Shown: piece after piece, positions 14,810-60,752 of the stretch
How positions within the stretch are numbered: the first letter of the stretch is position 1
How the letters are laid out: every line of letters begins with the position of its first letter
Origin: Candidatus Omnitrophota bacterium
GTDB lineage: Bacteria; Omnitrophota; Gorgyraeia; 2-01-FULL-45-10
Assembly: GCA_903843285.1 (NCBI GenBank)
Contig: CAIMPC010000007.1
Location: 92,730-156,729 of the forward strand
Reading direction: 5' to 3'
Length of the DNA stretch: 64,000 nt
The notes under the pieces: model-generated
Databases searched by the model: none
Seen by the model: the letters and a program-made list of their open reading frames with translations, nothing else
Told to the model about the DNA's origin: nothing
Made by a program: the position numbers and the translations under genes

Positions 14810-14814
14810 ATAAT

Positions 14815-28236: not shown

Positions 28237-28240
28237 AAAT

Positions 28241-31552: not shown

Positions 31553-31574
31553 TACCAAAAAGGCCTTCACGACA

Positions 31575-34618: not shown

Positions 34619-35277
34619 CACATCGCATCGTGATCGTAGATTATGGAGCCGGAAACCTTTATAGCATAGAGCGGGCATTGGATTTCATAGGCGTTCAAGC
34701 CGAAGTGGTAAGCACTCCGGAAAAGATAGCTGGTGCCGAACGCATAATTTTGCCGGGAGTCGGCGCTTTCAAGAACGGTATGCGAGGATTGTCTGAACGT
34801 GGCCTGGTAGGTCCGCTGCAGGAATATGTCAGGTCGGGCCGACCATTGCTCGGCATCTGTCTGGGCATGCAGCTACTGATGAGTGAAAGTGAGGAATTTG
34901 GCAGATACGATGGACTCAACATGGTCAAGGGCAAGGTAGTCCGGTTAGACCCAGCGCTTCCAGGCAAGGAGCGATTCAAGGTTCCGCATGTAGGATGGAG
35001 CAGGGTAATACGGAGGGAAAGCAGTTGTGCGGAGATGCCGGATGGGTGGACGGAGGGCGTTCTTAAGAGCCTCCCCAATGGTTTCTTTGCATATTTTGCC
35101 CACTCATTTGTGGTTGTGCCCGAAGATGGCTCGGCCTGTATAGCTCAGACAAAGTATGGTGGAGCGACATTTTGCTCTTGCCTGCAGCAGAATAATTTAT
35201 ACGGCTGCCAGTTCCATCCGGAGCGTAGCGGCATAGAAGGTTTGGAGATCTATAGGGACTTTGTCCGGAGAAATTAG
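34615..35277 (+). CDS. glutamine amidotransferase HisH-like (WbuY-like)
   Basis: IVIVDYGAGNLYSIERAL...LPGVGAF class I GATase signature. Confidence 0.8.
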   Translation: MTHRIVIVDYGAGNLYSIERALDFIGVQAEVVSTPEKIAGAERIILPGVGAFKNGMRGLSERGLVGPLQEYVRSGRPLLGICLGMQLLMSESEEFGRYDGLNMVKGKVVRLDPALPGKERFKVPHVGWSRVIRRESSCAEMPDGWTEGVLKSLPNGFFAYFAHSFVVVPEDGSACIAQTKYGGATFCSCLQQNNLYGCQFHPERSGIEGLEIYRDFVRRN

Positions 35278-39719: not shown

Positions 39720-40460
39720 ATGGTTTATGGAATTGTGCCGGCCCGGGGCGGGTCCAAGGGTGTACCGGGCAAGAATATAAAGCTATTAGGCGGATATCCG
39801 CTGATCGCTTACTCTATAGCGGCGTCTAAAATGGCTGGGTCCATCTCCAGGACTATAGTTTCAACAGATTCCGCGGAGATCGCAGATATCGCAAAAAAAT
39901 ACGGGGCGGAGGTACCTTTTTTACGGCCGGCGATATTGGCCGGGGATAGATCGCCAGATATTGATTTCATCCTGCATGCGATAAATTGGTTTCAACAGAA
40001 TGAAAAAAAAGTCCCGGAATACTTCGTTCATCTTAGGCCGACGACTCCTTTAAGAGACCCGGCTATAATAGATCGGGCGATCAAAGAGATGAAGAGTAGC
40101 GGTGACGCAACTTCATTGCGCTCCGGTCATCCGGCACCTGAGTCGCCGTTCAAGTGGTTCCTGCGCGATGCGCATGGTTATTTCAAAGGGATTTTGCCTG
40201 AGTACTCCAATGATTTTATCAATTTACCAAGGCAGTCCTTTCCCATCGTATATATTCCCGACGGTTATGTGGACGTATTAAAGACACCCTTTATAATCGG
40301 TTCAAATACCCTTCACGGGGACAAGATGATCGGCTTTATTTCGCCGTTCTGCGTCGAAGTTGATAGTGCTGAAGAGTTCGCGTTTCTGGAACTGGAGATA
40401 CAGAAAGGCTGTAACGCTGTTTACATGTATTTAAAGGCAAATTTTCCAAAGGAGATTTAA
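39720..40460 (+). CDS. acylneuraminate cytidylyltransferase family (second CMP-nonulosonate synthetase)
   Basis: VYGIVPARGGSKGVPGKNI N-terminal signature. Confidence 0.75.
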   Translation: MVYGIVPARGGSKGVPGKNIKLLGGYPLIAYSIAASKMAGSISRTIVSTDSAEIADIAKKYGAEVPFLRPAILAGDRSPDIDFILHAINWFQQNEKKVPEYFVHLRPTTPLRDPAIIDRAIKEMKSSGDATSLRSGHPAPESPFKWFLRDAHGYFKGILPEYSNDFINLPRQSFPIVYIPDGYVDVLKTPFIIGSNTLHGDKMIGFISPFCVEVDSAEEFAFLELEIQKGCNAVYMYLKANFPKEI

Positions 40461-43794: not shown

Positions 43795-45783
43795 ATGGGA
43801 AGTCGTGATATGGCGGATATTCTAAATATAAATAATAAATCAGTTTGCTGGGTTGAAAAACTGACCGTTCCGGACATTCTCTTTTTTTTGATCCATAGCT
43901 GTTTTGCTGATATAAAGGTAAATTACGACCAGAATCAGGTGCGTCCATCGGCTCGTAAGTTTCTCAGGTTATTAGAAAAATTACGGATAGGTGATTGCTT
44001 TTGCGCCGTAAAACTATCGCTTCATGGAGTTGACCGGGAAGGGTTCGCTTTATTCTATAAGGTCAATAATGATATCGAAGGCTGCATAGAGGATTTTTTT
44101 GCGCGGCATATTTCACGCGAGTCGAAGCGCTTTAAGGATATGCTTAAGTCCTATCTGGCTGGATACATAATAGGCAAATTTACTTTTATCGCTATGGTAG
44201 ATCATGAAATCTACTCAAAAAAACTGCCTGAAGGCCAAGGCAATCTCATACATCTTTCCAGGAGTCCATTCAATCACCTGATTCGTAATTATTATAGTGA
44301 CCGCGAATTTACTGTTAGCATGCCGTTCCTATCGTTAAGCGGTTTAACCTTTTATCTTAGACCTTTCTTTTATTTGGCTGGCGTTTTATTATGCAAAATT
44401 TTCAGTTTCAAAGTACGTAATAATATCACAGACATTAAGCCAGCCGTATGGGTTGAATATAGTCCAGGATATCTTCATTCTTTTTGGGTAGACCATATTA
44501 AATCAGGGGACTTCGATATTGTATATTATATAGACCGCCCTGATACGCCAACAACAAAAGAGATAACGGATGAGATAGAGGGCCGGGGATTGAAATGGGT
44601 TGACGCGCATCCTTTGTCGGTGCTTAAGATGGGCAGACTACGATGGTCAGTTATTATGGAGATGTTCAAAAAACTGTTTCATGTCTATCTTTCTAAGCCT
44701 GTGTGGTTGGGAATATTCCGATATGAGCACTATTATCTATCAGTGGCATATGAAGCGATATTTTCTCGTCACAAGGTGAAGGTGTTATTGCAACACCAGG
44801 AAGCCCTCTGGAAACAGGAATCGCAGGCCCTGGCGATAGAGCGTTCCGGCGGGATCATGGTGGGGTATCACTGGTCTGTTTATGCTTTCTGTCTGGTGCC
44901 TGCACATTTTTTCCCCCAACATGTTTATTTTGTATGGGGTAAATACATGGGTGAATTACTCAGTAAGAAGGGTAGCGCGTGTCGTTACGTGCTGCCATCC
45001 GGAATATGGATCGTCCCAGGTGATAAGGGCCATCAGGCTGGAGATCTTTTTAGCGATAATGTCAATTTTATTATAACCGTTTTTGATGATTCTGTAAGCT
45101 ACAACGTATTCCAATCTCCGGGCTCGTTGGCTGACTTCTATCTAAGGATCCTGAGTATAGCTGAAAACAACCCAAGGTTTGGCTGTATAATAAAAAGCAA
45201 GAATCCGCTCGATCGAGTGCTCATGTCGATTCCCTCAGGGAAAGAGATCAAAAAAAGGGCCGAAGCCCTAAGGATACAAAAGAGGTTGACGATACTTGAT
45301 TCTTCCGTTTCACCGGTTGTCGCGGCGACGCATTCAGACCTATCCGTAGGCTATAGCGTAAATTCAGCGTGTACTATCTCGGCGATAATATGTGGCTCGG
45401 CTGCTATTTGTTGGGATTGCGCAGGGTTTAGGAAGCATCCATTCTATAAGCACTCGGATCAGAAGCTTGTCTTCAGCACTTTGGATGAGCTCGAAGAAGC
45501 TATTTTGAAGTTTAGCAGGGGCGATAAGACTATAGGGGATTACAGCCGATGGAAGAAGTGCATAAATCATTTTGAAGATGTTGCTGGAATTAACCGTATA
45601 GCCGGTTTTTTGACGGACTATATGAAAGAGAACATGTCAACTGGTAAACCTGAGCATTCTCTGGATTTTGCGGTAAAGAAGTACCTGAATGAAAATAAAG
45701 TCGGTGACGATTTTTATGAACATGAAGATATCTGGAATAGTGAGATATTCACGGAATGTCAGGCGGGCATGAATGTTAAATAA
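43795..45783 (+). CDS. hypothetical protein; C-terminal half resembles the GT-B nucleotide-binding half of KpsC/sialyltransferase-like enzymes, with NP in place of HP
   Basis: KSKNPLD... then LSVGYSVNSACTISAIICGSAAICW parallels the HP...GAASGTMIEAASVGIPVIA pattern of the ORF at 52309. Very tentative. Confidence 0.3.
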   Translation: MGSRDMADILNINNKSVCWVEKLTVPDILFFLIHSCFADIKVNYDQNQVRPSARKFLRLLEKLRIGDCFCAVKLSLHGVDREGFALFYKVNNDIEGCIEDFFARHISRESKRFKDMLKSYLAGYIIGKFTFIAMVDHEIYSKKLPEGQGNLIHLSRSPFNHLIRNYYSDREFTVSMPFLSLSGLTFYLRPFFYLAGVLLCKIFSFKVRNNITDIKPAVWVEYSPGYLHSFWVDHIKSGDFDIVYYIDRPDTPTTKEITDEIEGRGLKWVDAHPLSVLKMGRLRWSVIMEMFKKLFHVYLSKPVWLGIFRYEHYYLSVAYEAIFSRHKVKVLLQHQEALWKQESQALAIERSGGIMVGYHWSVYAFCLVPAHFFPQHVYFVWGKYMGELLSKKGSACRYVLPSGIWIVPGDKGHQAGDLFSDNVNFIITVFDDSVSYNVFQSPGSLADFYLRILSIAENNPRFGCIIKSKNPLDRVLMSIPSGKEIKKRAEALRIQKRLTILDSSVSPVVAATHSDLSVGYSVNSACTISAIICGSAAICWDCAGFRKHPFYKHSDQKLVFSTLDELEEAILKFSRGDKTIGDYSRWKKCINHFEDVAGINRIAGFLTDYMKENMSTGKPEHSLDFAVKKYLNENKVGDDFYEHEDIWNSEIFTECQAGMNVK

Positions 45784-47599
45784 GATATCTTTTGTATTAA
45801 CAAGGAATGAAAAAAAAGGCCTGGCGGGTCTGGCTATTGGTTCGGTTCTACTCGCATTATCCGAGACCGTCAGCATAGGACTGATAATCCCTATAACCAG
45901 CCTGTTTATGTCGGATGGCCCGGTGGGGTCGTCCAAAGCGATCGGATGGCTGCAGGGGATTACGGGGCTTCATGACAGAACTGTTTTCCTGACCGTTCTT
46001 ATAGCCGTGACGATGGTGATATTTCTTTTTAAATCCGTCTATTCCGTATTTATGCTCCGCAGTCAATACGACTTCACGAGTGGCATTTACTGTCGTTTGA
46101 CCGGTAAGGTCATGTCCTCATATCTCTATAGCCCATATTCTTTTCATCTCAATAGCAATTCTTCTGTATTATTCAAGAACATGATAGGTGAGGTAGGTCA
46201 ATTCACCTCCGGGTTTCTGTCGCCGGCCATCATCATAGCTTCCGAATCCCTGGTGTTTATCGCCATTCTAACGCTATTAATGTACGTATATCCGGTAATG
46301 ACAATCGCTCTTGCCGCTATGTTATTTATGATGATGCTTTCCTTCAACTTATTTGTTAACCGTAAAATAAAGGATTATTCCAGAGAGAGGGAAACGTATA
46401 GTGAAGCCATATATGTGATGGCGAATGAGGCTCTCAGTGGCATTAAAGAGATCCAGGTTAACAGCGTACAAGACTATTTTATTAAAAGATTTTCGACCGC
46501 TACTAGGAAATACCAGGATAGCTTCACGAAATTCAGTGTTCTTTCCAACTTGCCGCGTTATATCATGGAGAGCGCGGTCTTCTTCATTATGCTGGCGGCA
46601 TTGCTTATCAGCCTTCACCTTCACAGGCCTCCCTCAGAATTGGTGCCTATGTTGACGGTTATGGGAGCGGCGGCTATAAAGCTTCTACCGTCGATCAACA
46701 AGATATATCTGAGCTACAATTCCATTAATTATTTTGCTAATAGCCTGGATGTTGTTTATTCGATCCTTAAGGATGTCGTTTCGCCCCAGACTGAACTCGA
46801 TGCGGGCGAACGCGCGGCTGATGGAGCAAAAGACGGTACTTCAGCATTCAGGCTCGCGGGCGCCGGATTCTCCTATAAAGAGGGTGGACCGTCCGTTCTC
46901 GACGGCTTAGATCTTGATATTCCATTTTTTTCCACTACGGCGATTGTGGGCGCTTCCGGAGCTGGCAAGAGCACCTTAATTGATATATTTACCGGTCTTT
47001 TGACGCCGACACAGGGAACCCTGTACTACAGGGGTACGGTTGTAAATGCGAGAAATCTTCATGAAGTGCGCAAAAAGATAGGGTATGTCCCCCAGAATAT
47101 ATTTCTTATTGATGATACTATCAAGGCGAACATAGCTTTCGGAAAGGCGGAGGAGGCTGTGGACCATAAACTGATCGATCAAGCCGTTCGCCTATCTAAT
47201 CTTGAATCATTTATCGGTGCGTTGCCAAAAGGGATAGACACACCGACAGGTGAAAGAGGTGTAAGGCTTTCCGGTGGCCAGCGACAGCGTATAGGGATAG
47301 CCAGGGCGCTATATCGTAATCCGGAGGTTCTGATACTGGATGAAGCTACGTCCGCTCTTGACGGCAATAGCGAGGCAGAGGTGATGGGAGCCATAAAAAA
47401 AATGAAAGATGCCGGTATGGCAGTCATTCTAGTGGCCCACCGTTTAAGCACGATCTCTAACGCGGATCTTGTATGCATTATGGACCATGGAAAAGTCGGT
47501 GCAAAGGGCAGCTTTAAAGAGCTGCATGACAATTCTGACTTATTCAATAAGATATTACACGAGAAAGACAATATGAATAAAAAGGCATCAGCTCAATGA
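45773..47599 (+). CDS. ABC transporter, fused permease/ATP-binding protein (MsbA-like exporter)
   Basis: Six N-terminal hydrophobic segments. Walker A GASGAGKST, ABC signature LSGGQRQR, Walker B ILILDEATSALD. Confidence 0.8.
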   Translation: MLNKISFVLTRNEKKGLAGLAIGSVLLALSETVSIGLIIPITSLFMSDGPVGSSKAIGWLQGITGLHDRTVFLTVLIAVTMVIFLFKSVYSVFMLRSQYDFTSGIYCRLTGKVMSSYLYSPYSFHLNSNSSVLFKNMIGEVGQFTSGFLSPAIIIASESLVFIAILTLLMYVYPVMTIALAAMLFMMMLSFNLFVNRKIKDYSRERETYSEAIYVMANEALSGIKEIQVNSVQDYFIKRFSTATRKYQDSFTKFSVLSNLPRYIMESAVFFIMLAALLISLHLHRPPSELVPMLTVMGAAAIKLLPSINKIYLSYNSINYFANSLDVVYSILKDVVSPQTELDAGERAADGAKDGTSAFRLAGAGFSYKEGGPSVLDGLDLDIPFFSTTAIVGASGAGKSTLIDIFTGLLTPTQGTLYYRGTVVNARNLHEVRKKIGYVPQNIFLIDDTIKANIAFGKAEEAVDHKLIDQAVRLSNLESFIGALPKGIDTPTGERGVRLSGGQRQRIGIARALYRNPEVLILDEATSALDGNSEAEVMGAIKKMKDAGMAVILVAHRLSTISNADLVCIMDHGKVGAKGSFKELHDNSDLFNKILHEKDNMNKKASAQ

Positions 47600-49134
47600 A
47601 GGTGTCGCTTATAAATCTGAGGACCAGAAGCGACCACGCTTTTCTTAATCTCGGTGCTCTCTATGTTGCCTCTAGCATACGTAGTGCCGGGCATGAATTA
47701 GAATTTGTAGATCTCGTGCGGCATCCGATGGATGACGCTGAAGTCGCCGCTGTCATCAAGAGGATTGACCCAGATCTGATAGCTTTCAGTGGCATCATAA
47801 CGACATACTATAGGCTTAAAGGGCTGAGTCAATATCTGAGGCTAACTTTTCCTTCCATTCCACAGCTTTTAGGCGGGTCCGTGGGTCAGAGCGCTCTTGG
47901 GATCATAGAGTCATACACACCGATCGATTTTGTCTGTGCGGGTGAAGGTGAAGATATGGCGATAAAGTTTCTGGATGAGCTTAAAGGCGAAAGAAGATGG
48001 GCCGATGTGCCAAATCTCCATTACAGGGTTGAGGGATCGTTCAGGATGTCCCGGAAGCAAGGGGTATACGCTGAGGACCTAGATGCCTTACCGCTACCGG
48101 CTTATGACCTCGTTGATATGGATTTTTATATAGATTATGCTACGTCGATATTCGGAACTGAACTCGCCGACTGCGGAAAAGTGCCGCGGGTCATGCCGAT
48201 GGTATTTTCGAGAGGCTGCCCGTTCTCGTGCTCTTTCTGTTATAGACTGATACGCAGATGGCGGCATCATTCAGCGGAAAATATCGTCGCGCACTTAAAG
48301 GTTTTAAAGGATAGGTATGGTATAGGTGGCATAGCCCTGAACGACGAGCTGGTCTTTGTCGACAGGGGGTGGTTTGTTTCGGCGTGTGATGCGATTCTGG
48401 CGTCCGGGGTTGGAATAAAATTTTCATGCGGCGGTGGCAAGCCCAGCATGGTGACGGAAGATATTATGGCAGCTATGAAGCGAACAGGCTTCAGACGCAT
48501 CGGTTATGGAGTAGAATCCGGCAGTTCAAAGATACTCAAATTGATGCGTAAAGAGGTGACGGTGGAAGGCAATTTTAACGCACTTGCGTTGACGCTAAAG
48601 TATGGCATGATAAGTAGAGCAAACTTTGTATTCGGCCATCCCGGCGAAGATAAGAAGACAATTCGGGAGACATTGGATTTTATCGACGGTCTATATAAAT
48701 TACAGGAAAGATATGGGGTGATTGAAGACCATATCCAGGTATGGTTCGCTACTGCATATCCGGGGTCTCCGATGTGGGAGATGGCGCTGGCAAAAGGTAT
48801 TATACATGACGAGGAAAGCTATCTTATAAAGGTTACCAGTCAGGACAAATATCTGATAAATCTTTCTGAATTAAGATCCGTCAGCCAACTCAGGAACTAT
48901 GTTTACCGCGGGCTTACAGAGCTGGATATTAAGAAGCATGCACGAAGAAAACAGTATAGGCAGCTTGTAACCGACCTTAAGCGCCTCGCTTTGCTATATA
49001 TAGTGTACTTTATGACATTGGGCCGATTTGCCAAACTATCTGATCTGTTAGAGGCGACGCGCCTTATGCCTAGCAAGAATGTATTTGCGCATATCAAGCG
49101 CGCCAAAATGAGGTATCTATGGAACAGGGCCTAA
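47596..49134 (+). CDS. cobalamin-binding (class B) radical SAM protein
   Basis: B12-domain-like N-terminus. SRGCPFSCSFC motif. ATGA overlap with the ABC gene. Confidence 0.75.
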   Translation: MKVSLINLRTRSDHAFLNLGALYVASSIRSAGHELEFVDLVRHPMDDAEVAAVIKRIDPDLIAFSGIITTYYRLKGLSQYLRLTFPSIPQLLGGSVGQSALGIIESYTPIDFVCAGEGEDMAIKFLDELKGERRWADVPNLHYRVEGSFRMSRKQGVYAEDLDALPLPAYDLVDMDFYIDYATSIFGTELADCGKVPRVMPMVFSRGCPFSCSFCYRLIRRWRHHSAENIVAHLKVLKDRYGIGGIALNDELVFVDRGWFVSACDAILASGVGIKFSCGGGKPSMVTEDIMAAMKRTGFRRIGYGVESGSSKILKLMRKEVTVEGNFNALALTLKYGMISRANFVFGHPGEDKKTIRETLDFIDGLYKLQERYGVIEDHIQVWFATAYPGSPMWEMALAKGIIHDEESYLIKVTSQDKYLINLSELRSVSQLRNYVYRGLTELDIKKHARRKQYRQLVTDLKRLALLYIVYFMTLGRFAKLSDLLEATRLMPSKNVFAHIKRAKMRYLWNRA

Positions 49135-50882
49135 AAACAAATGTATGGGAAAGCATGAGGCCTATACGAAATAATATGAATGTCGAGATACTAGACTGCA
49201 CGATACGGGATGGCGGGTATGTAAATAACTGGGATTTCGATAAGCGACTCGTGCGAGAAACCTATCGGGCGCTATCGAAAGGAGGGGTCGACTATATCGA
49301 GCTCGGCTATCATGGAAGCCAGAAATGGTTCGATAAGAAACAATATGGTGCCTTCAGGTTATCTCTCGCGGAGGACATACGATTTGTATGCAACAATATT
49401 GCGGGTGCAAAAGTTGCGGTGATGGTTGATTACGGCAAATTTGATGTAGAAGAGCTTGCTCAATATAAAGATACCCCAGTCCGGCTGATACGCATAGCCG
49501 TTCACAGGCATTCTATAAAAAAGGCGATCCATGCTGCTGCCGGAATACGACGAATGGGGTTTCTTGTTGCCGTTAACCTTATGGGATTTACGCTCTACAC
49601 GCCGAAAGAGCGAAAAAAGGTCGCGTTGCTATTTCGCGACGCGCCGATTGATTACGCTTATTTGGTTGACAGTCACGGATCCTTCTTCCCGAACCAGATA
49701 GGGGATATTTGCGGACCCCTTTTCGGCATAAGGCATATTCGATGGGGGTTCCATGCTCACAATAATCTTCAAATGGCTTTTGCCAATACTCTCAGCGCTA
49801 TGGCAGCCGGTGCCCATATAATTGATAGTTCGGTATTCGGTATGGGGCGAGGTGCCGGCAACCTGCCTACGGAGATCATCCTGGCATATATGCACCTTTT
49901 AAAGCCGGAGAAATATAACGCAATACCGGTTTTAAGCCTGGTCGATCGTTATTTTACAAAATTGTACGATGCGTCACCATGGGGGTATAACCTGCCCTTT
50001 ATGCTTTCGGGAATACATGATTGCCATCCAGATTATCCAAAAAACCTGATCAATAGAAAAGAATACGATATAGAAGATATATGGAAGATATTAAATGCCG
50101 TACGGTTAAGTGCGCCGGTCGGATTTAATAAGGAGCTCCTTGAAGGCATAATAAGAAATGGACTCTTTTCAAAAAAACCCGCCGCATCGGGAGTAGCTTC
50201 GAAAGCGAATACCAGTAAGCGCAAGAAGACCTCTGTCAGCTATCGTGGCAGGCACAGAAACGCCGATTTTCTTGTTCTTGCAAACGGCCCGAGCCTGAAA
50301 AGCAACCATAAGCAGTTAGCTGCTTTTATAAGCAAATATCAGCCGATCGTCCTGGCTTCAAATTATCTGGGAGGACTTTTTAAGCCCCACTATCATGCTT
50401 TTAGCAATAAACGAAGATTGATAGATTATATTGACACGGTCGATAAGAGTTCTCGGCTTCTTATAAGTCAGTTTATATCGCCTCAGATGATACGGGAATA
50501 CACTGACCGGGATCACGAAACCATTTATTATGAAAATACCGATGCGCAATTCACTATCAATGATGGCGTCATCAGCTCACATTGCAGAACCGTGGCGCTT
50601 TTATTGCTGGGCGTAGCTATTGTTATGGGCGCTAGGCGTATTTTTGTTGCAGGCTTGGATGGGTATACCGGCATAAATAAGAAGGGGCAGATTCATTTCT
50701 ATAATGAGAAGGATGAGACGGAAGATAGGAATGTGCTAATGGAAAAACATATGAGTAATTTACGCTACCTTGAACAGATAGATGAGTATATGTGCTCTCA
50801 CGGAAAAGAAGGTATCCATATTATAACGCCTACCAACTACACTAAGTATTATAAAGGCATTGAGAATTATATATCAAAATAA
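49119..50882 (+). CDS. fusion protein: N-terminal HMGL-like (pyruvate carboxyltransferase/aldolase TIM-barrel) domain plus C-terminal GT42/Maf(DUF115)-like sialyltransferase domain
   Basis: N-terminal LDCTIRDGGY (DxxLRDG-like aldolase motif). C-terminal FLVLANGPSLK and RRIFVAGLDGY resemble the IIAGNGPSL and IYLSGIDFY blocks of Cst-II-type alpha-2,3/2,8-sialyltransferases. Confidence 0.55.
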   Translation: MEQGLKTNVWESMRPIRNNMNVEILDCTIRDGGYVNNWDFDKRLVRETYRALSKGGVDYIELGYHGSQKWFDKKQYGAFRLSLAEDIRFVCNNIAGAKVAVMVDYGKFDVEELAQYKDTPVRLIRIAVHRHSIKKAIHAAAGIRRMGFLVAVNLMGFTLYTPKERKKVALLFRDAPIDYAYLVDSHGSFFPNQIGDICGPLFGIRHIRWGFHAHNNLQMAFANTLSAMAAGAHIIDSSVFGMGRGAGNLPTEIILAYMHLLKPEKYNAIPVLSLVDRYFTKLYDASPWGYNLPFMLSGIHDCHPDYPKNLINRKEYDIEDIWKILNAVRLSAPVGFNKELLEGIIRNGLFSKKPAASGVASKANTSKRKKTSVSYRGRHRNADFLVLANGPSLKSNHKQLAAFISKYQPIVLASNYLGGLFKPHYHAFSNKRRLIDYIDTVDKSSRLLISQFISPQMIREYTDRDHETIYYENTDAQFTINDGVISSHCRTVALLLLGVAIVMGARRIFVAGLDGYTGINKKGQIHFYNEKDETEDRNVLMEKHMSNLRYLEQIDEYMCSHGKEGIHIITPTNYTKYYKGIENYISK

Positions 50883-50906
50883 GGTGTTATTTAACGGAGG
50901 TGTATT

Positions 50907-51638
50907 ATCAAAACGGTAGGAATCATTCCGGCTCGATATGAATCTTCAAGGTTTCCGGGCAAACCCATTATAGAACTCTGCGGTAAGCCAATGATAATCT
51001 GGGTGGCGGAAGTCACTGCTAAGGCTCTCGGAAAAGAAAACACCTATGTCGCTACCGATGACAAGCGTATATCGGACACGGTAAGAAGGAGCGGCTTTAA
51101 GTCCATTTTGACATCAGAGAAGGCAATGACCGGCACCGATCGAATAGCGGAGGCGGCGCGAACAATAGACGCCGATATTTATATTAATATTCAGGGTGAC
51201 GAACCTTTGCTTGATCCGGATGATATAAAAAAGGCAGTGGCCGCAAAGAAGAAATTTCCGAAAGCAGTCATTAACTGCATGTGCGTCCTTGGAAGTGACG
51301 AGGACCCATCCAATCCTAACATACCGAAGGTCATTACGACTGAAGATGAACGCCTTGTTTACATATCGCGTCTGCCGGTTCCGGGGTCGAAGTCTATAGA
51401 TAATTATCCTAAGACATTTTGGAGGCAAGTCTGCATTTATGCATTCTCGGGGGACGAGTTAAACGCGTTTAGCGGGTTTGGACGTAAGGGCAATCTGGAG
51501 CGCATTGAAGATATAGAAATATTGCGCTTCCTTGAATTGAGTATCCCAGTTCGAATGGTGAAAGTCACCAGCGGCTCAAAGGCAGTCGATGTGCCCGAGG
51601 ATGTCCGTGCGGTAGAGACTTTACTGAGGGCCAGATGA
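50907..51638 (+). CDS. kdsB: 3-deoxy-manno-octulosonate cytidylyltransferase (KdsB) family CMP-sugar synthetase; non-AUG start or 5' lesion
   Basis: In-frame translation upstream of the first ATG (50991) reads KTVGIIPARYESSRFPGKPIIELCGKPMIIW, which is the conserved KdsB N-terminus. GDEPLL motif downstream. Only ATT (50904) or ATC (50907) is available after a GGAGG RBS (50896-50900); the frame is closed by TAA at 50892. Confidence 0.6.
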   Translation: MKTVGIIPARYESSRFPGKPIIELCGKPMIIWVAEVTAKALGKENTYVATDDKRISDTVRRSGFKSILTSEKAMTGTDRIAEAARTIDADIYINIQGDEPLLDPDDIKKAVAAKKKFPKAVINCMCVLGSDEDPSNPNIPKVITTEDERLVYISRLPVPGSKSIDNYPKTFWRQVCIYAFSGDELNAFSGFGRKGNLERIEDIEILRFLELSIPVRMVKVTSGSKAVDVPEDVRAVETLLRAR

Positions 51639-52312
51639 TCTCAATAAACAAATATAAGACTTGGATATTCGATTGCGATGGTGTTATTTTGGATTCCAAT
51701 GGTATTAAGACAGAAGCATTTTATGAAGTGGCGCTACCGTATGGAAAGGATAACGCCGCAGCTCTGGTGAAGTACCACAAAGAATACGGCGGGATGTCGC
51801 GTTTTAGAAAATTCGATTATTTCTTTAAGGATATCCTAAAGATGAAAGTTTTTGACAATGAATTTGCGCGAGCGTTGGAAAAATATGGATCGCTTGTCAG
51901 CAAGAAGATGATAGGATGTCCGGAATCACAGGGTTTAAGATCGTTCTTGGGCCTGATACCGGAAAAAATCCGCAAGATAGTCGTCTCGGGAGGCATGGAA
52001 AATGAACTACGGGATATTTTTGCAAAGCGTGGACTCAGCGTATATTTTAATGATATATATGGCAGCCCAGATGCTAAAGAGGTAATACTGAAGAGGGAGC
52101 AAAAGGCGGGCATGATAGCATCGCCCTCGATATTTATTGGTGACACGCAATATGATCACGAGTGCGCGCAAAAGATAGGCGCAGATTTTATATTCATGTC
52201 CGGGTATACTGAATTTGATGGATGGAAGCATTATTGCGATGTAAAAAATGTTATTGTTGTCCAGGATTTAACATATCTCAAAGCTCGTTTGGATGGTGGA
52301 AAGAACTCATGA
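51635..52312 (+). CDS. HAD-superfamily hydrolase (phosphatase, subfamily IA-like)
   Basis: WIFDCDGVILDS motif I (DxDG). Downstream GDTQYD motif. Confidence 0.7.
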   Translation: MISINKYKTWIFDCDGVILDSNGIKTEAFYEVALPYGKDNAAALVKYHKEYGGMSRFRKFDYFFKDILKMKVFDNEFARALEKYGSLVSKKMIGCPESQGLRSFLGLIPEKIRKIVVSGGMENELRDIFAKRGLSVYFNDIYGSPDAKEVILKREQKAGMIASPSIFIGDTQYDHECAQKIGADFIFMSGYTEFDGWKHYCDVKNVIVVQDLTYLKARLDGGKNS

Positions 52313-53838
52313 GCGATGAAGCAGACAGTCTTATGAGGATATTTGATGCGATAGCTAAAGTGAATAAGGAAGCTTATAGGGACGTGTTCATGATATCCAA
52401 CTCAGTGTTGAATAAAAACCCTTTCAATAATAATTTATTTAAAAGGTATTCACGCAAAGAAGCTATCGGCAAGTATCCGTTTTGCGCTAAGGTATATAAG
52501 CTTTTGCTGTATTATATTAAGAGCACGCTGTATTTTGGAATGTATCTCATCAGGTTTTTTGAGTTCGTTGTATCGGGGTTTAAGTTCGATTTATCAAGCG
52601 GCGGCAAAGAACTCGTGCTTATAGACGTTCCGTTTTTGCTGGAGGATATTGCGAAGTCATCAGCTTTTCGTGATCGGTACCTTCCAGGCCTGGAGGATAT
52701 TCTGAAGAAGAGAGGGAGGCAATACGCCTATCTGCCGCTATTTTACAGCCAGCAGAATCACAAGAGGCCGTTAGAGCTTCTGCGCGCCCTAAGAATATTG
52801 AAGAGATTTAAGATACCGCTAATAACCGAATATCAGATGTTCAGCTTGAGCGATATTTTCAAGCTCATTTTCTTTATATTGACCTACCCGTTTCACGTGA
52901 TAAGGTGTGCAGACAAGATACAGGATGATACAGAAGAAGGAAAGGCCGTAAAATATGAATTGATGGATACTCTTGACCAGGCGACTTTTTATAATTATTC
53001 ACGCCTTCTCTTAGGAAGGCGGATAGCGCGGATGCGTTACGCAGGCATAAAAGTTATAAGCTGGTATGAGAACCGTCCAACCGATAAAAATCTTTACAAA
53101 GGATTAAGGGATGGTTCGCACTCGGCGCATATCAGAATCTACGGCGCACAGCTATTTCTCTATTCAAAAAAAACGCCCTGTTTCGTCCCTCATGAAGATG
53201 AGCTCGATTTTGGGGTTTTGCCGGATAAGATACTGGCTAATGGGCCGTATTATATTCAGAATGGGACACGCCTCAATCACGTTGTAGGGCCTTCGCTCAG
53301 ATACGCAGGCATTTTCGCAATGGATGTAAATCAAACCGACCGTACCAATATCCTGATCTTATTGCCATATTTTATTAAAGACGCGGAGAAAATATTAAAG
53401 ACGCTAGCAAGCGCGGCGATGTCTCGAAGAAAGTTTTTTATTAAAGCGCATCCGGCTACACCGCTTTCAAGGTTTAAGGGTCTTCTGCCTGCGAGTGCGA
53501 TGATAGTGAGAGATGATATATTCAAACTTTTTAGGACGACTAAGATACTTATCGGTGCTGCGAGCGGTACTATGATAGAAGCTGCGAGCGTGGGTATTCC
53601 GGTCATTGCTATTAAAAGCCATGATGGACTGGATATTAATAATCCTATGCCGGAATACGGCCGGGGAATAATATGGGATTATGCGCTTGACGCCGTAAGC
53701 CTGAATGAACAGATAAAAGCATTCGAGGAGAAGCTTGCTACGAGAGCTGTGATAATAAGGGATGTAGCAGCAAAATATAAAGATATGTTCTTTTCCCGGC
53801 CTACGGAAAGTGCGATCGTCGATGCGTTCGAGCTTTAA
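52309..53838 (+). CDS. putative CMP-sugar (nonulosonate/Kdo) glycosyltransferase, sialyltransferase/KpsC-KpsS-like GT-B with HP motif
   Basis: FIKAHPATP (HP motif), then ILIGAASGTMIEAASVGIPVIAIK, resembling the C-terminal half of capsule Kdo transferases and sialyltransferases. Start at ATG 52309 (ATGA overlap with the HAD gene). Confidence 0.4.
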   Translation: MSDEADSLMRIFDAIAKVNKEAYRDVFMISNSVLNKNPFNNNLFKRYSRKEAIGKYPFCAKVYKLLLYYIKSTLYFGMYLIRFFEFVVSGFKFDLSSGGKELVLIDVPFLLEDIAKSSAFRDRYLPGLEDILKKRGRQYAYLPLFYSQQNHKRPLELLRALRILKRFKIPLITEYQMFSLSDIFKLIFFILTYPFHVIRCADKIQDDTEEGKAVKYELMDTLDQATFYNYSRLLLGRRIARMRYAGIKVISWYENRPTDKNLYKGLRDGSHSAHIRIYGAQLFLYSKKTPCFVPHEDELDFGVLPDKILANGPYYIQNGTRLNHVVGPSLRYAGIFAMDVNQTDRTNILILLPYFIKDAEKILKTLASAAMSRRKFFIKAHPATPLSRFKGLLPASAMIVRDDIFKLFRTTKILIGAASGTMIEAASVGIPVIAIKSHDGLDINNPMPEYGRGIIWDYALDAVSLNEQIKAFEEKLATRAVIIRDVAAKYKDMFFSRPTESAIVDAFEL

Positions 53839-54823: not shown

Positions 54824-56320
54824 ATGAAAAAAAATACGATTGCGCTTTTCTATCCTAAGACGGAAAAAGAGAGCGTTAATAAGAACTTACCATTTGCCAT
54901 ACTGAAGCTGGGATCCGAGCTTAAGGGTGAGGGGTATGACCTTGCTATCATAGATGAGAGATTTGAAGAGCAGTATCAACACCGTCTATCTGAAGTTCTA
55001 GATAAAGCAATCTGTTTCGGCGTCAGCGTTATGACCGGATATCAGATACAGAGCGGCCTGTCGGCATCTGAATTTGTCAGGAAGATCAACAAGAATGTGC
55101 CGATAGTGTGGGGCGGCTGGCACCCGTCGATATTACCGCGGGAAACACTGGAAAATGCTAACATCGATATTGTGGTCATGGGGCAGGGGGAGAGGACCCT
55201 ATGCGAATTGGCCGGTACCCTAAAAAAGGGAGGGCCGCTCGAAGGGATCGACGGGCTTTCATACAAGAAGGGCGGAAGCATAGTCATTAATAAACGGCGG
55301 GAACCGCAGGACGTTAATACTCTCCATCCCTTAAGGTTCGATGTCCTCGATATAGAGAGATACATTTTCCGAAGCGCTCTTGGCAATCGATCGATCTTCT
55401 GGAATTCTTCTCAGGGATGCCCTTACGGATGCGGCTTCTGCAGTACGCCAGCTGTGTACCACAGGCGATGGACCGGACTAAAGGCGGAAACCCTTATAGG
55501 CCAGCTCTCGACCCTAGTCGATAAATACAAGATAGACAGCGTTACGTTTGCAGAGGATAATTTTTTCGTAGATATCAAAAGGGTCGAAACGTTATGCGAA
55601 CTCCTGATAATAAATAAGATAAAGCTTAAGTGGGCCTCCGACGTCCGTGTCGATAAGATCATACATTTTTCGGACGATATGATGCGTCTATTAAAAGAGA
55701 GCGGTTGCGTTAAATTATACGTAGGTGCGGAGTCGGGTGACCAGGATGTCCTTACCCTGATAAATAAGATGATAAGAGTGGAAGATACTTATAAGGCCGC
55801 TGAGATGCTGGATAAGTATAAGATCATATCGGAGTTCTTCGTTATAGTCGGGTTCCCGAACGCCCCGAAGAAGGATTTAGCGAAAACGCTCGAGCTTATA
55901 AAAGGCATTAAATCCCGTTATCCTGATCATCAGTTTTCGACATATATTTATACTCCGTATCCCGGGACACCGCTCCTGGGTTTGGCCGTGGAACACGGCC
56001 TTAAGATACCTGACAAATTGGAAGATTGGGTACGATGGAATATACTCTCCATTAATACACCATGGGTAGATGAGAAATATCTCGATACCGTTAATATGTA
56101 TTCCAAGTGTTATTACCCGCTTGCGTTTCCGTCCCCGGCTTTAAAGAAAAAATTTAATGAGAATTTATTAGGGCTGGTGTATCTTATATTGCATAAACTA
56201 TCGCTTTTCAGGGTGAATAATAATTTCTTTATTTTCCCCGTAGAATGGAAGCTCGTTAAAGCGTTTAACGGGATTAGAACCAGATATGGCATATTCAAGG
56301 AGATGGAATCTTTCAGGTAG
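54824..56320 (+). CDS. cobalamin-binding (class B) radical SAM protein
   Basis: B12-domain motif VWGGWHPSILP. SQGCPYGCGFC motif. Close paralog of 12301. Confidence 0.8.
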   Translation: MKKNTIALFYPKTEKESVNKNLPFAILKLGSELKGEGYDLAIIDERFEEQYQHRLSEVLDKAICFGVSVMTGYQIQSGLSASEFVRKINKNVPIVWGGWHPSILPRETLENANIDIVVMGQGERTLCELAGTLKKGGPLEGIDGLSYKKGGSIVINKRREPQDVNTLHPLRFDVLDIERYIFRSALGNRSIFWNSSQGCPYGCGFCSTPAVYHRRWTGLKAETLIGQLSTLVDKYKIDSVTFAEDNFFVDIKRVETLCELLIINKIKLKWASDVRVDKIIHFSDDMMRLLKESGCVKLYVGAESGDQDVLTLINKMIRVEDTYKAAEMLDKYKIISEFFVIVGFPNAPKKDLAKTLELIKGIKSRYPDHQFSTYIYTPYPGTPLLGLAVEHGLKIPDKLEDWVRWNILSINTPWVDEKYLDTVNMYSKCYYPLAFPSPALKKKFNENLLGLVYLILHKLSLFRVNNNFFIFPVEWKLVKAFNGIRTRYGIFKEMESFR

Positions 56321-60750: not shown

Positions 60751-60752
60751 GC

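What the first reader, a model, noticed from the sequence alone, without database searches (positions are those of the whole stretch)
49119..50882. Unusual fusion: HMGL-like aldolase/carboxyltransferase TIM barrel plus Cst-II/Maf-like (GT42) nonulosonate transferase domain
Residues 1 to about 340 carry a DxxLRDG-type motif (LDCTIRDGGY) of the HMG-CoA-lyase/4-hydroxy-2-oxovalerate-aldolase fold. Residues from about 370 to the end carry LVLANGPSLK and FVAGLDGY blocks that resemble the AGNGPSL and SGIDFY motifs of Campylobacter Cst-I/II sialyltransferases and DUF115 Maf proteins (flagellin nonulosonate transferases). A C-C lyase/aldolase domain covalently fused to a putative sialyltransferase is not an arrangement I know to be described. 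It could couple formation or trimming of a keto-acid substituent to transfer.
Basis: partly seen in the sequence, partly recalled or inferred. Interest (0 to 1): 0.6.

Follow-up and report, generated by a model that had tools for sequence, protein, structure and literature searches.

The report
Conserved aldolase–sialyltransferase-like fusion enzyme
This gene really does encode a pyruvate-aldolase barrel joined to a distant relative of bacterial sialyltransferases, and the fusion is widespread, uncharacterised and nearly always next to a CMP-Kdo-synthetase-like gene, which points to an unstudied route for making and attaching an acidic keto-sugar to cell-surface glycans.

Summary
ORF 49119..50882 is one uninterrupted 587-aa protein. 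Its N-terminal domain is an HMGL-like/DRE-TIM barrel (Pfam 87 bits). Its C-terminal domain is MptE-like/DUF115 at sub-threshold score (E 8e-6).

The fusion is not an assembly artefact. Thousands of full-length homologues of 50-83% identity occur in many phyla. A 510-aa gut Bacteroides/Prevotella version is the parent of PDB 3DXI.

A diverse profile of the C-domain finds the GT42 sialyltransferases Cst-I and Cst-II as its best solved relatives by sequence (E 2.6e-5 to 1e-3). By fold, the best matches are the MptE pyrophosphokinase and SteA.

In 25 of 30 loci the fusion lies beside a CTP_transf_3 cytidylyltransferase, KdsB-like in 20. A HAD phosphatase (19) and a TIGR04326/BFO_1060-like glycosyltransferase (17) are usually present; NeuB rarely is (2). 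One metagenomic contig encodes aldolase, MptE-like and KdsB-like domains in a single 769-aa protein.

Best reading, inferred rather than shown: the aldolase builds a Kdo-like 3-deoxy-2-ulosonic acid from pyruvate or oxaloacetate, the neighbours dephosphorylate it and CMP-activate it, and the C-domain binds and transfers the CMP-sugar. A kinase or a regulatory role for the C-domain is not excluded. I found no literature on this protein.

The parts
49119..50882 (+). Whole fusion gene, 587 aa. An alternative start at ATG 49155 (M13) would give 575 aa.
   Evidence: Single ORF. The full-length architecture is conserved in the 120 best homologues. P0001 is 100% identical and 575 aa. GAGG lies 5 nt upstream of ATG 49119.
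49182..49904 (+). DRE-TIM (HMGL-like) metallo-aldolase barrel, aa 22-262. The metal and enolate site is R30, D31, E61, H212 and H214. Y34 stands where DmpG has His21.
   Evidence: Pfam PF00682, 87 bits. NCBIfam best match is the 4-hydroxy-2-oxovalerate aldolase subfamily, E 1e-39 but below cutoff. PDB matches: 3dxi E 6e-45, DmpG/BphI-type aldolases E 1e-19 to 1e-24, with motifs aligned. These residues are invariant in 34 homologues. pLDDT is about 90.
49905..50156 (+). Helical subdomain after the barrel, aa 263-346. It corresponds to the C-terminal helical region of 3DXI and of DmpG-type aldolases.
   Evidence: The alignment to 3dxi runs to aa 325. Conserved WGY, MLSG and CHP motifs. Helices in the AlphaFold model, at lower confidence.
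50157..50240 (+). Variable, K/S-rich, disordered interdomain linker, aa 347-374.
   Evidence: Not conserved and variable in length in alignment A1. pLDDT is below 50 for aa 350-368.
50241..50873 (+). C-terminal MptE-like / GT42-like phosphonucleotide-binding domain, aa 375-585. Conserved residues are the N389-G390-P391-S392 loop, N415, Y425-H426, N430, R433, C489-R490, G512-x-D514-G515-Y516, F527-Y528-x-E530-x-x-E533, H544 (at least 90%), E564, H567 and T570-P571-T572.
   Evidence: Pfam PF01973 E 1.4e-6 to 7.9e-6, and 23 of 23 homologues hit it. AlphaFold model with pLDDT 91 and pTM 0.91. Foldseek best hits are SteA and MptE HPPK. Diverse profile against PDB: Cst-I E 2.6e-5, Cst-II about 1e-3, MptE 0.017. 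Invariant residues.
50904..51638 (+). KdsB-like (CMP-Kdo-synthetase-like) cytidylyltransferase. It probably starts at a non-canonical ATT (50904) or ATC (50907) after a GGAGG Shine-Dalgarno sequence; the ATG-called ORF is 50991..51638.
   Evidence: Pfam CTP_transf_3. NCBIfam PRK13368, 214.7 bits, starting at profile position 29. The conserved VGIIPARYESSRFPGKP motif is encoded in frame upstream of the first ATG, both here and in the 83%-identical locus L006. An orthologous gene lies next to the fusion in 20 of 30 loci.
51635..52312 (+). HAD-IA family phosphatase (HAD_2).
   Evidence: Pfam and NCBIfam. A HAD gene lies within 7 kb on the same strand in 19 of 30 fusion loci.
52309..53838 (+). Putative GT-B-type glycosyltransferase related to the TIGR04326 and BFO_1060 families. 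The ORF listing gives 52222..53838; ATG 52309, which overlaps the HAD stop as ATGA, gives 509 aa, the same length as the L006 orthologue.
   Evidence: No Pfam hit. NCBIfam TIGR04326 E 1.8e-7 and BFO_1060-family glycosyltransferase E 1.9e-4. BFO_1060 is a homologue of the genetically proven Tannerella Pse/Leg-derivative transferases (PMC5420450). Homologues follow the cytidylyltransferase in 17 of 30 loci.
47596..49134 (+). B12-binding radical SAM enzyme immediately upstream, overlapping the fusion's ATG 49119 by 16 nt. It may tailor the same sugar; its membership of the module is uncertain.
   Evidence: Pfam B12-binding plus Radical_SAM. B12-rSAM genes lie near the fusion in 10 of 30 loci.

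Best explanation
The gene encodes a genuine, widely conserved bifunctional enzyme. It is the signature of a small cassette that makes, activates and transfers an acidic keto-sugar for a surface glycan.

Shown:
- Both domains are real.
- The aldolase metal and enolate site is intact.
- The fusion is conserved across phyla.
- It is almost always linked to a CTP_transf_3 (usually KdsB-like) cytidylyltransferase, and usually also to a HAD phosphatase (or a PfkB kinase in Bacteroidales) and a putative GT-B transferase.
- NeuB/KdsA-type synthases are usually absent.

Inferred mechanism:
1. The N-terminal class II (DmpG/BphI/RhiG-like) aldolase generates a pyruvate enolate, from pyruvate or by decarboxylating oxaloacetate. 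It adds this to a sugar or sugar-phosphate aldehyde, giving a 4-hydroxy-2-oxo acid, that is, a Kdo-like 3-deoxy-2-ulosonic acid.
2. The HAD enzyme removes a phosphate.
3. The KdsB-like enzyme converts the product to its CMP ester.
4. The C-terminal domain, a distant relative of GT42 sialyltransferases, binds the CMP-activated product through its NGPS loop, R490 and D514-G-Y516. It transfers the product, with CMP as the leaving group, to a conserved acceptor.
5. The neighbouring TIGR04326-like glycosyltransferase performs a further transfer.
For: Domain calls.

Aldolase active site: R30, D31, H212 and H214 align with DmpG R17, D18, H200 and H202 and are invariant. The closest characterised relatives are pyruvate aldolases, not Claisen condensing enzymes: E 1e-39 for the aldolase subfamily against 1e-14 to 1e-16 for the homocitrate and isopropylmalate synthase models. 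RhiG is a precedent for an HMGL-like aldolase used biosynthetically in the aldol direction (10.1101/2021.04.07.438883).

C-domain: a confident model. The diverse profile finds Cst-I, the 9c08 sialyltransferase and Cst-II as the best solved sequences (E 2.6e-5 to 1e-3), ahead of MptE (0.017). R490, D514 and Y516 fall on Cst-II R129, D154 and Y156.

Context in 30 fusion loci: a KdsB-like gene in 20, with 5 more carrying another CTP_transf_3; HAD in 19; the TIGR04326-like glycosyltransferase in 17; NeuB in only 2.

Fusion and replacement evidence: L104 encodes aldolase, MptE-like and KdsB-like domains in one 769-aa ORF, followed by a HAD gene. In L097 a stand-alone copy of the C-domain family sits where the glycosyltransferase normally lies.

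The gut Bacteroidales version lies in Wzy-type capsule loci next to CTP_transf_3.
Against: There is no biochemical evidence for any step, and the product sugar is unknown.

The C-domain scores below Pfam's gathering threshold for PF01973, and the window protein gives no CST-I hit.

Foldseek ranks SteA and the pyrophosphokinase MptE first, at TM about 0.45, and lists no GT42 or Maf structure in the top 50.

hhalign against Cst-II aligns only 34 residues at 23% probability.

The Cst-II catalytic His188 has no unambiguous equivalent. The profile alignment puts it on E530. By spacing it would be H544, which is Q or N in 3 of 34 homologues.

The C-domain is as conserved as the aldolase barrel (59% against 58% mean pairwise identity). 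That is more typical of a small-molecule enzyme than of a glycan-acceptor transferase.

Most cassettes already carry a separate candidate transferase.

Fusing the first and last steps of a pathway is unusual.
Confidence: 0.45

Rival explanations
1. The C-domain is a kinase or pyrophosphokinase, not a transferase. Like MptE and thiamine pyrophosphokinase, it would use ATP to phosphorylate the aldose substrate or the aldol product. The pathway would then be kinase, aldolase, HAD phosphatase and KdsB-like activation, analogous to ManNAc kinase / NANS / NANP / CMAS. The neighbouring TIGR04326-like GT-B protein would be the only transferase.
For: The best structural matches are MptE HPPK and SteA, which has a TPK-like nucleotide pocket (PMC12977500). 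Invariant acidic residues E467, D514, E530, E533 and E564 could bind Mg2+. The C-domain is as conserved as the aldolase barrel across phyla. Fusions usually join consecutive steps. A dedicated candidate glycosyltransferase is present in 17 of 30 cassettes.
Against: By sequence profile the family is closer to GT42 sialyltransferases than to MptE (2.6e-5 against 0.017). The Bacteroidales and L003 variants carry a separate PfkB kinase next to the fusion. In L097 a stand-alone copy occupies the glycosyltransferase position. The constant partner is a CMP-forming enzyme, which matches the CMP-binding members of the superfamily.
Confidence: 0.22
2. The C-domain is a non-catalytic CMP-sugar sensor. 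It would bind the end product and feedback-inhibit the fused aldolase, which catalyses the first committed step, much as CMP-Neu5Ac inhibits GNE.
For: The fold is a phosphonucleotide-binding domain. It is fused to the first enzyme of the inferred pathway. The GT42 catalytic His is not strictly conserved.
Against: 129 of the 150 best cluster representatives of the C-domain family are stand-alone proteins of 205-270 aa with no aldolase to regulate. About 40 residues are invariant, among them Arg, His, Asp and Glu residues, which looks catalytic.
Confidence: 0.1
3. The aldolase domain does not build the sugar backbone. It would either cleave or trim an existing nonulosonic acid (lyase direction), or act as a Claisen-type condensing enzyme that makes an acyl or keto-acid substituent for the Pse/Leg-type sugars produced elsewhere in the window.
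For: The window contains two NeuB genes, four CTP_transf_3 genes and many tailoring enzymes. HMGL-like enzymes include the Claisen condensing enzymes IPMS and homocitrate synthase, as well as HMG-CoA lyase.
Against: NeuB lies near the fusion in only 2 of 30 loci, whereas a dedicated KdsB-like cytidylyltransferase is present in 20. Sequence affinity to pyruvate aldolases is far stronger than to the CoA-dependent members. The Bacteroidales capsule loci (L091/L092) carry the module with no NeuB within 10 kb on either side.
Confidence: 0.12
4. The fusion is an assembly or annotation artefact, that is, two genes joined by a missed stop or frameshift.
For: None, beyond the low-complexity linker at aa 347-374.
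Against: The frame is uninterrupted. The same architecture at the same length occurs in hundreds of independent assemblies from many phyla. Full-length orthologues are 50-83% identical across both domains.
Confidence: 0.01

Closest known systems
DmpG/BphI-type 4-hydroxy-2-oxovalerate aldolases (PDB 1NVM, 4LRS, 4JN6, 8IH7) and the biosynthetic homologue RhiG
   Same: DRE-TIM barrel with the same Arg-Asp...His-x-His metal and enolate site. The chemistry is formation or cleavage of 4-hydroxy-2-oxo acids through a pyruvate enolate. PDB E-values are 1e-19 to 1e-24 and the motifs align. RhiG shows that such enzymes can work in the synthetic direction.
   Different: The window protein scores below the NCBIfam cutoffs (123-136 bits against 229-286). 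DmpG His21 is replaced by an invariant Tyr34. No acylating dehydrogenase partner (DmpF/BphJ) is present. The context is glycan biosynthesis rather than aromatic catabolism, and the protein is fused to a nucleotide-binding domain.
PDB 3DXI, 'putative aldolase' (a structural-genomics entry)
   Same: It is the best solved match (E 6e-45, about 32% identity over aa 20-325) and shares the RDGGY..NW signature. Its parent protein (P0278, 99% identical) is a 510-aa Bacteroides/Prevotella protein. The C-terminal part of that protein, about aa 308-480, also matches the C-domain family HMM (E 1e-11). It lies next to a CTP_transf_3 gene in capsule loci.
   Different: Only the aldolase domain was crystallised, and I found no functional study. 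That C-domain is divergent: GGGFNA replaces ANGPS. Its partner enzyme is a PfkB kinase rather than a HAD phosphatase.
GT42 sialyltransferases Cst-I and Cst-II of Campylobacter jejuni (PDB 2P2V, 1RO7)
   Same: They are the best solved relatives of the C-domain family by sequence profile (E 2.6e-5 to 1e-3). They share the N-terminal NGPSLK loop, the Asn-containing second and third strands, R129/R490, the hydrophobic helix, and G-I/L-D-F/G-Y (D154/Y156 matching D514/Y516). In both cases the gene sits beside a CMP-sugar synthetase.
   Different: The window protein gives no CST-I Pfam hit. Only the core aligns (23% hhalign probability). The 155-188 lid is much shorter. The catalytic His188 aligns with Glu530 or with a His that is not invariant. 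Foldseek does not place GT42 in its top 50. The donor would be a different, Kdo-like, sugar.
MptE (archaeal 6-hydroxymethyl-dihydropterin pyrophosphokinase, PDB 8SD5) and SteA (9HMZ/9HMY); Pfam PF01973
   Same: PF01973 is the Pfam family that the C-domain hits. These are also its best structural matches (Foldseek E 5e-5 to 1e-3, probability 1.0). All share the phosphonucleotide-binding core.
   Different: TM-scores are only 0.43-0.47. The sequence profile E-value is 0.017 for MptE and 0.097 for SteA, weaker than for GT42. There is no pterin or folate context. SteA is a cell-division regulator.
Maf flagellin nonulosonate transferases (PDB 5MU5)
   Same: Same Pfam family (the former MAF_flag10/DUF115), and the same association with CMP-ulosonic-acid biosynthesis genes.
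   Different: 5MU5 scores E 1.9 with no significant stretch. Maf proteins are about 600-aa proteins with extra N- and C-terminal domains and lie near flagellin genes. Here the domain is about 210 aa, is fused to an aldolase, and the window has no flagellar genes.
Kdo and sialic acid 'synthase - phosphatase - cytidylyltransferase - transferase' pathways (KdsA/KdsC/KdsB/WaaA; NANS/NANP/CMAS)
   Same: The same inferred pathway logic and the same partner families: a KdsB-like CTP_transf_3, a HAD phosphatase, and a CMP-dependent transferase.
   Different: The carbon-carbon bond-forming enzyme is a DRE-TIM pyruvate aldolase, not a PEP-dependent KdsA/NeuB synthase, and it is covalently joined to the putative transferase. 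In L104 it is joined to the cytidylyltransferase as well.

Membership tests
DRE-TIM metallolyase / HMGL-like (PF00682) | Match to the family profile above the curated threshold. | tested here: met
   87.4 bits against a gathering score of 29, aa 22-262.
DRE-TIM metallolyase / HMGL-like (PF00682) | Conserved Asp plus His-x-His divalent-metal ligands, and the Arg that stabilises the enolate. | tested here: met
   R30, D31, H212 and H214 align with DmpG R17, D18, H200 and H202 and are invariant in 34 homologues.
4-hydroxy-2-oxovalerate aldolase (DmpG/BphI; TIGR03217, PRK08195) | Score above the equivalog or subfamily cutoff. | tested here: not met
   122.9 bits against 286 and 136.5 bits against 229.
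4-hydroxy-2-oxovalerate aldolase (DmpG/BphI; TIGR03217, PRK08195) | Catalytic His (DmpG His21) in the R-D-G-x-H motif, and an adjacent acylating aldehyde dehydrogenase partner. | tested here: not met
   The motif is RDGGY, with an invariant Tyr34. No aldehyde dehydrogenase gene was found among the ORFs scanned in the window or in the related loci.
MptE-like / DUF115 (PF01973) | Match to the family profile above the curated threshold. | tested here: inconclusive
   26.2-28.7 bits against a gathering score of 34.6, at E 1e-6 to 8e-6. 23 of 23 homologues hit the family (best 9.7e-10). Foldseek finds MptE and SteA with probability 1.0 but TM of about 0.45. This supports superfamily membership; family membership is not established.
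MptE-like / DUF115 (PF01973) | Pyrophosphokinase activity (ATP to AMP, with a diphosphorylated substrate). | not testable with these tools
   This needs an enzyme assay.
GT42 sialyltransferases (Cst-I/Cst-II; PF06002) | Match to the family profile. | tested here: not met
   The window protein gives no CST-I hit, and only 2 of 23 homologues hit at E 1e-3 or weaker. The reverse search with family profile A3 finds Cst-I at E 2.6e-5 and Cst-II at about 1e-3, but only over the core.
GT42 sialyltransferases (Cst-I/Cst-II; PF06002) | CMP-binding and catalytic residues: the NGPS loop, R129, D154, Y156, Y162 and the general base H188. | tested here: inconclusive
   The NGPS loop, R490, D514 and Y516 are conserved and aligned. 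H188 aligns with the invariant E530 in the profile alignment. By spacing it would be H544, which is absent in 3 of 34 homologues.
GT42 sialyltransferases (Cst-I/Cst-II; PF06002) | Transfer of a CMP-activated ulosonic acid to an acceptor. | not testable with these tools
   This is inferred only from the adjacency of a KdsB-like cytidylyltransferase and the triple fusion in L104.
Maf flagellin glycosyltransferases | Protein of about 600 aa with the MAF_flag10 core flanked by Maf-specific domains, and linkage to flagellin genes. | tested here: not met
   5mu5 scores E 1.9. The domain is about 210 aa and fused to an aldolase. No flagellin or flagellar genes were found among the window ORFs scanned.
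Ulosonic-acid biosynthesis cassette (Kdo/NulO type) | A CTP_transf_3 cytidylyltransferase of KdsB/NeuA type encoded with the synthase. | tested here: met
   The gene at 50904..51638 scores 214.7 bits to the KdsB subfamily PRK13368, and the L001 orthologue exceeds the cutoff of PRK05450.1-5. Such a gene is present in 20 of 30 loci, and 5 more carry another CTP_transf_3.
Ulosonic-acid biosynthesis cassette (Kdo/NulO type) | A PEP-dependent KdsA/NeuB-type synthase. | tested here: not met
   NeuB lies within 7 kb in only 2 of 30 fusion loci. In the window the two NeuB genes are 10 and 24 kb upstream, each with a cytidylyltransferase gene nearer to it than the cassette's. The aldolase domain is proposed to take over this role.

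The most novel reading that the evidence does not exclude
The fusion marks a previously unrecognised route to a CMP-activated Kdo-like ulosonic acid that does not use NeuB or KdsA. The sugar backbone would be built by a class II DRE-TIM pyruvate/oxaloacetate aldolase. It would be installed by a new glycosyltransferase family only distantly related to GT42. The route would be widespread, from candidate phyla (Margulisbacteria/WOR-1, Omnitrophota, Elusimicrobia) to abundant human-gut Bacteroidales capsule loci, and would probably yield a sugar not yet described in bacterial glycans.
Probability: 0.35. Interest if true: 0.75.

Novelty: new variant of a known kind. Interest (0 to 1): 0.55.

Why it matters
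All well-studied bacterial ulosonic acids (Kdo, sialic, pseudaminic and legionaminic acids) are made by PEP-dependent KdsA/NeuB synthases. These sugars shape immune recognition, phage receptors and capsule diversity.

A conserved cassette in which a different aldolase superfamily is welded to a sialyltransferase-like domain and paired with a KdsB-like activator would mean a second biosynthetic logic for acidic keto-sugars. It would probably also mean an undescribed sugar.

The module occurs in very abundant gut Bacteroides/Prevotella capsule loci, where a crystal structure of the aldolase half already exists (3DXI). The hypothesis is therefore directly testable in cultured, genetically tractable organisms. 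If confirmed, it would also define a new glycosyltransferase family, or a new kinase family, within the MptE/GT42 superfamily.

Tried and rejected
Libraries that were unavailable:

Sequence comparisons of the C-domain that gave little:
- The narrow C-domain profile (A2) against PDB sequences gave nothing significant.
- hhalign of A2 against Cst-II aligned only the core, at 23% probability. The Cst-II sequence was recalled from memory and then verified as identical to 1RO7.

Literature searches that found no paper on this protein:
- HMGL-like plus DUF115.
- 4-hydroxy-2-oxovalerate aldolase plus nonulosonic.
- BVU_2661.
- MptE plus HPPK.
- Aldolase plus KdsB plus polysaccharide.

Searches with limited yield:
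- The metagenome scan with a broad alignment of stand-alone proteins failed because no stretch was conserved enough. A narrower alignment gave 12 loci.

Readings rejected:
- Assembly artefact or frameshift.
- Orthology with DmpG/BphI catabolic aldolases.
- Maf identity.
- A phosphonate (RhiG/FrbC-type) pathway. No PEP mutase was found among the window ORFs scanned.
- Read-through from the fusion into the KdsB-like gene. The two are in the same frame, but two TAA stops separate them.

Left open:
- The stand-alone 316-aa aldolases (Omnitrophota, Cohnella, Paenibacillus; about 37% identity) lack the cassette. They were set aside as a separate subfamily.

Full report
**What is there**

ORF 49119..50882 on the + strand is one uninterrupted frame of 587 codons. 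Pfam places an HMGL-like (DRE-TIM) domain at aa 22-262, E 1.3e-24, 87 bits against a gathering score of 29. It places an MptE-like (PF01973, formerly DUF115/MAF_flag10) match at aa 376-514, E 7.9e-6, 26 bits, below the gathering score of 34.6. NCBIfam ranks the N-domain closest to 4-hydroxy-2-oxovalerate aldolases (E 1e-39 and 1.6e-35, both below cutoff). The homocitrate and isopropylmalate synthase models come far behind, at 1e-14 to 1e-16.

AlphaFold2 with a 34-sequence alignment gives two well-folded domains separated by a disordered linker, aa 350-368. The C-domain modelled alone is very confident, with pLDDT 91 and pTM 0.91.

**The fusion is real and common**

A search of 5.8 billion proteins returned 2,414 hits among 8,000 scored candidates. 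All but one of the best 120 are 567-591 aa and cover 96-99% of the query at 50-100% identity; the exception, P0044, is a 486-aa partial protein. They come from Margulisbacteria/Saganbacteria/WOR-1, Planctomycetes (Scalindua, Brocadiaceae), Syntrophorhabdaceae, Omnitrophota and Proteobacteria. Source names are 'aldolase catalytic domain-containing protein', 'hypothetical protein' or '4-hydroxy 2-oxovalerate aldolase'.

In a 34-sequence alignment both domains are strongly conserved and only the linker (aa 347-374) varies. Mean pairwise identity is 58% for the barrel and 59% for the C-domain. A missed stop or frameshift is therefore excluded. Most homologues, including the 100%-identical P0001 (575 aa), start at the equivalent of M13 (ATG 49155). 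ATG 49119 has a good GAGG Shine-Dalgarno sequence and overlaps the upstream gene by 16 nt, so the start remains uncertain.

**The aldolase half**

The best solved relative is 3DXI, 'putative aldolase' (E 6e-45). DmpG/BphI-type 4-hydroxy-2-oxovalerate aldolases follow at E 1e-19 to 1e-24. R30, D31, H212 and H214 align with DmpG R17, D18, H200 and H202 and are invariant, as is E61. The metal and enolate site therefore looks functional. DmpG His21 is replaced by an invariant Tyr34, and the family carries its own RDGGY.N.W signature, which it shares with 3DXI.

The parent protein of 3DXI is a 510-aa Bacteroides/Prevotella protein (P0278, 99% identical; 247 member sequences). Its C-terminal region, about aa 308-480, matches my HMM of the C-domain family (E about 1e-11), although Pfam sees only HMGL-like. 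So the architecture also exists in abundant gut Bacteroidales, and the aldolase half of one member was already crystallised by structural genomics. I found no functional study.

RhiG of rhizocticin biosynthesis is a precedent for an HMGL-like aldolase working biosynthetically. It carries out a decarboxylative aldol addition of oxaloacetate to an aldehyde (10.1101/2021.04.07.438883).

**The C-terminal half**

A profile search of 1.84 billion cluster representatives found only 658 clusters at E no greater than 1e-3. The family is therefore small and distinct. Of the 150 best clusters, 129 are stand-alone proteins of 205-270 aa and 20 carry the aldolase. No other fusion partner was seen.

A more diverse profile (A3, 71 sequences) finds GT42 sialyltransferases as the best solved sequences: Cst-I 2.6e-5, 9C08 4.4e-4 and Cst-II about 1e-3. 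These are ahead of MptE (0.017), SteA (0.097) and Maf 5MU5 (1.9). The aligned core puts R490 on Cst-II R129, D514 on D154 and Y516 on Y156. The N-terminal NGPSLK loop is identical to that of Cst-II.

The catalytic His188 of Cst-II aligns with the invariant E530 in the profile alignment. By spacing it would correspond to H544, which is Q or N in 3 of 34 homologues. Membership of GT42 or Maf is not established, and the fold alone cannot separate a CMP-dependent transferase from an ATP-dependent (pyro)phosphokinase.

**Genomic context**

The whole 64-kb window is one same-strand glycan supercluster. It contains:
- two NeuB genes, four CTP_transf_3 genes and a NeuC-like 2-epimerase;
- DegT-type and class III aminotransferases and a HisH/HisF-like pair;
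- GT2 and GT9 transferases and an ABC exporter;
- an MBOAT plus GDSL pair and deacetylases;
- many methyltransferases and nine B12-binding radical SAM paralogues.

Immediately downstream of the fusion lie three genes. The first is a KdsB-like cytidylyltransferase (PRK13368, 214.7 bits). The second is a HAD-IA phosphatase. The third is a 509-538-aa protein with no Pfam hit that weakly matches TIGR04326 and the BFO_1060 glycosyltransferase family. BFO_1060 is a homologue of the genetically proven Tannerella Pse/Leg-derivative transferases (PMC5420450).

I collected 30 loci carrying the fusion. I scored neighbours within 7 kb on the same strand with HMMs built from the first loci.

| Neighbour | Loci out of 30 |
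|---|---|
| KdsB-like cytidylyltransferase | 20 |
| Another CTP_transf_3 | 5 more |
| HAD phosphatase | 19 |
| TIGR04326-like protein | 17 |
| HpcH/HpaI aldolase plus LdpA-like Fe-S protein (always together) | 12 |
| NeuB | 2 |

Three cassette variants recur:
- fusion, LdpA_C, HAD, HpcH, KdsB-like, glycosyltransferase;
- fusion, KdsB-like, HAD, glycosyltransferase (this window and L006);
- fusion, CTP_transf_3, PfkB kinase, in Bacteroidales Wzy-type capsule loci and in L003.

Two loci are especially informative. L104 encodes aldolase (aa 2-328), MptE-like (aa 339-523) and KdsB-like (aa 526-765) domains in a single 769-aa ORF followed by a HAD gene. Pfam confirms the two outer domains and my family HMM confirms the middle one. 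In L097, a stand-alone member of the C-domain family occupies the position normally held by the TIGR04326-like glycosyltransferase. Stand-alone members elsewhere sit next to CTP_transf_3, radical SAM/SPASM and aminotransferase genes in glycan clusters.

**Interpretation**

Four things are shown: a genuine, conserved two-domain enzyme; an intact aldolase metal and enolate site; a phosphonucleotide-binding C-domain whose nearest sequence relatives are CMP-sialic-acid transferases; and tight, cross-phylum linkage, including a natural triple fusion, to a KdsB-like cytidylyltransferase.

The mechanism is inferred. 3-Deoxy-2-ulosonic acids are 4-hydroxy-2-oxo acids in open-chain form, which is exactly the product class of DmpG-type aldolases. 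The cassette has a phosphatase, a CMP-activating enzyme and transferase candidates, but usually no KdsA/NeuB. The most economical reading is therefore that the aldolase domain replaces the PEP-dependent synthase and builds a Kdo-like sugar from pyruvate or oxaloacetate plus a sugar or sugar-phosphate aldehyde. HAD and the KdsB-like enzyme then process it to the CMP ester, and the C-domain uses that ester with CMP as the leaving group.

I put this at about 0.45. The main rival, at about 0.22, is that the C-domain is a kinase or pyrophosphokinase feeding or pulling the aldolase. That rival is favoured by the fold matches, by the conserved acidic residues, by the unusually high conservation, and by the presence of a separate candidate glycosyltransferase. 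A regulatory CMP-sugar sensor (about 0.1) and an aldolase that tailors or cleaves NulO sugars rather than building a backbone (about 0.12) remain possible. The identity of the sugar cannot be deduced from sequence.

**Novelty**

The architecture is present in databases under generic names, and half of one member has a PDB entry. I found no paper describing the fusion, its cassette or its function; the library does not cover most subscription journals. As a system it is a new variant of the known synthase, phosphatase, cytidylyltransferase and transferase logic for ulosonic acids, using a different aldolase superfamily.

Noticed in passing
window 50883-50995 (and L006 11729-11840): The KdsB-like gene downstream of the fusion has no canonical start codon in front of its conserved N-terminal nucleotide-binding motif, VGIIPARYESSRFPGKP. 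The only in-frame candidates after the GGAGG Shine-Dalgarno sequence (50896-50900) are ATT (50904) and ATC (50907). The first ATG (50991) would remove the motif. The same arrangement is conserved in an 83%-identical relative from an independent assembly, which suggests a genuine AUU/AUC start.
   Followed up: partly
window 7188-8615, 12301-13836, 25603-27084, 32272-33693, 37358-38788, 47596-49134, 54824-56320, 58167-59609 (plus a non-B12 radical SAM at 28181-29605): Eight B12-binding radical SAM paralogues (21-36% identical to one another), plus several other radical SAM/SPASM genes, lie in one 64-kb same-strand glycan cluster, often next to cytidylyltransferase genes. By analogy with Fom3 acting on a CMP-linked substrate, they may C-methylate CMP-activated sugars. 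This density is unusual.
   Followed up: partly
window 52222-52312: The ORF finder starts the TIGR04326-like gene at 52222, which overlaps the HAD gene by 91 nt. ATG 52309 overlaps the HAD stop as ATGA and gives 509 aa, the length of the L006 orthologue, so it is the more likely start.
   Followed up: partly
L104 2113-4422 (JGI contig Ga0193955_1002709): A natural triple fusion, 769 aa: DRE-TIM aldolase, MptE-like domain and KdsB-like cytidylyltransferase in one ORF, followed by a HAD phosphatase gene.
   Followed up: yes
L001, L002, L004, L005, L008, L009, L011, L013, L016, L017, L018, L026 (for example L001 11746-14278): In 12 of 30 loci the fusion is accompanied by an invariable trio: an LdpA-like 4Fe-4S protein (about 335 aa), a HAD phosphatase and an HpcH/HpaI class II aldolase. 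A second pyruvate aldolase and an Fe-S protein in the same cassette are unexplained. This trio is absent from the window.
   Followed up: partly
window 9279-11060, 21615-23885, 30326-31552, 35261-36445, 43795-45783: Five sizeable ORFs (593, 756, 408, 394 and 662 aa) in the glycan cluster have no Pfam match at E no greater than 1e-3 to 1e-4, and no paralogue in the window. The 662-aa ORF also has no NCBIfam hit. They may be novel glycosyltransferases or polymerases.
   Followed up: no
window 3992-5312 and 13838-15858: A split transketolase-like pair (Transketolase_N, then Transket_pyr) and a 2-oxoacid dehydrogenase E1 alpha/beta pair are embedded in the sugar cluster. This suggests ThDP-dependent two-carbon chemistry on sugars or keto acids.
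   Followed up: no
window 24489-25556, 38833-39684, 31479-32279, 39720-40460, 33704-35277: Two NeuB-type synthases, further CTP_transf_3 genes and a HisF/HisH-like amidotransferase pair indicate at least two separate nonulosonic-acid (Pse/Leg-type) pathways in the same window, in addition to the aldolase cassette.
   Followed up: partly
window 59884-62141: A GDSL-like hydrolase gene followed by an MBOAT gene. This is the arrangement typical of polysaccharide O-acylation systems (AlgI/AlgJ- or DltB-like).
   Followed up: no
L027-L087 (for example L040 Paenibacillus popilliae, L034 Cohnella terricola, and many Omnitrophota): A separate subfamily of stand-alone aldolases of about 316 aa (about 37% identical to the N-domain and sharing its signature) occurs without the C-domain and without the cytidylyltransferase/HAD cassette. 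Its role is unknown.
   Followed up: partly
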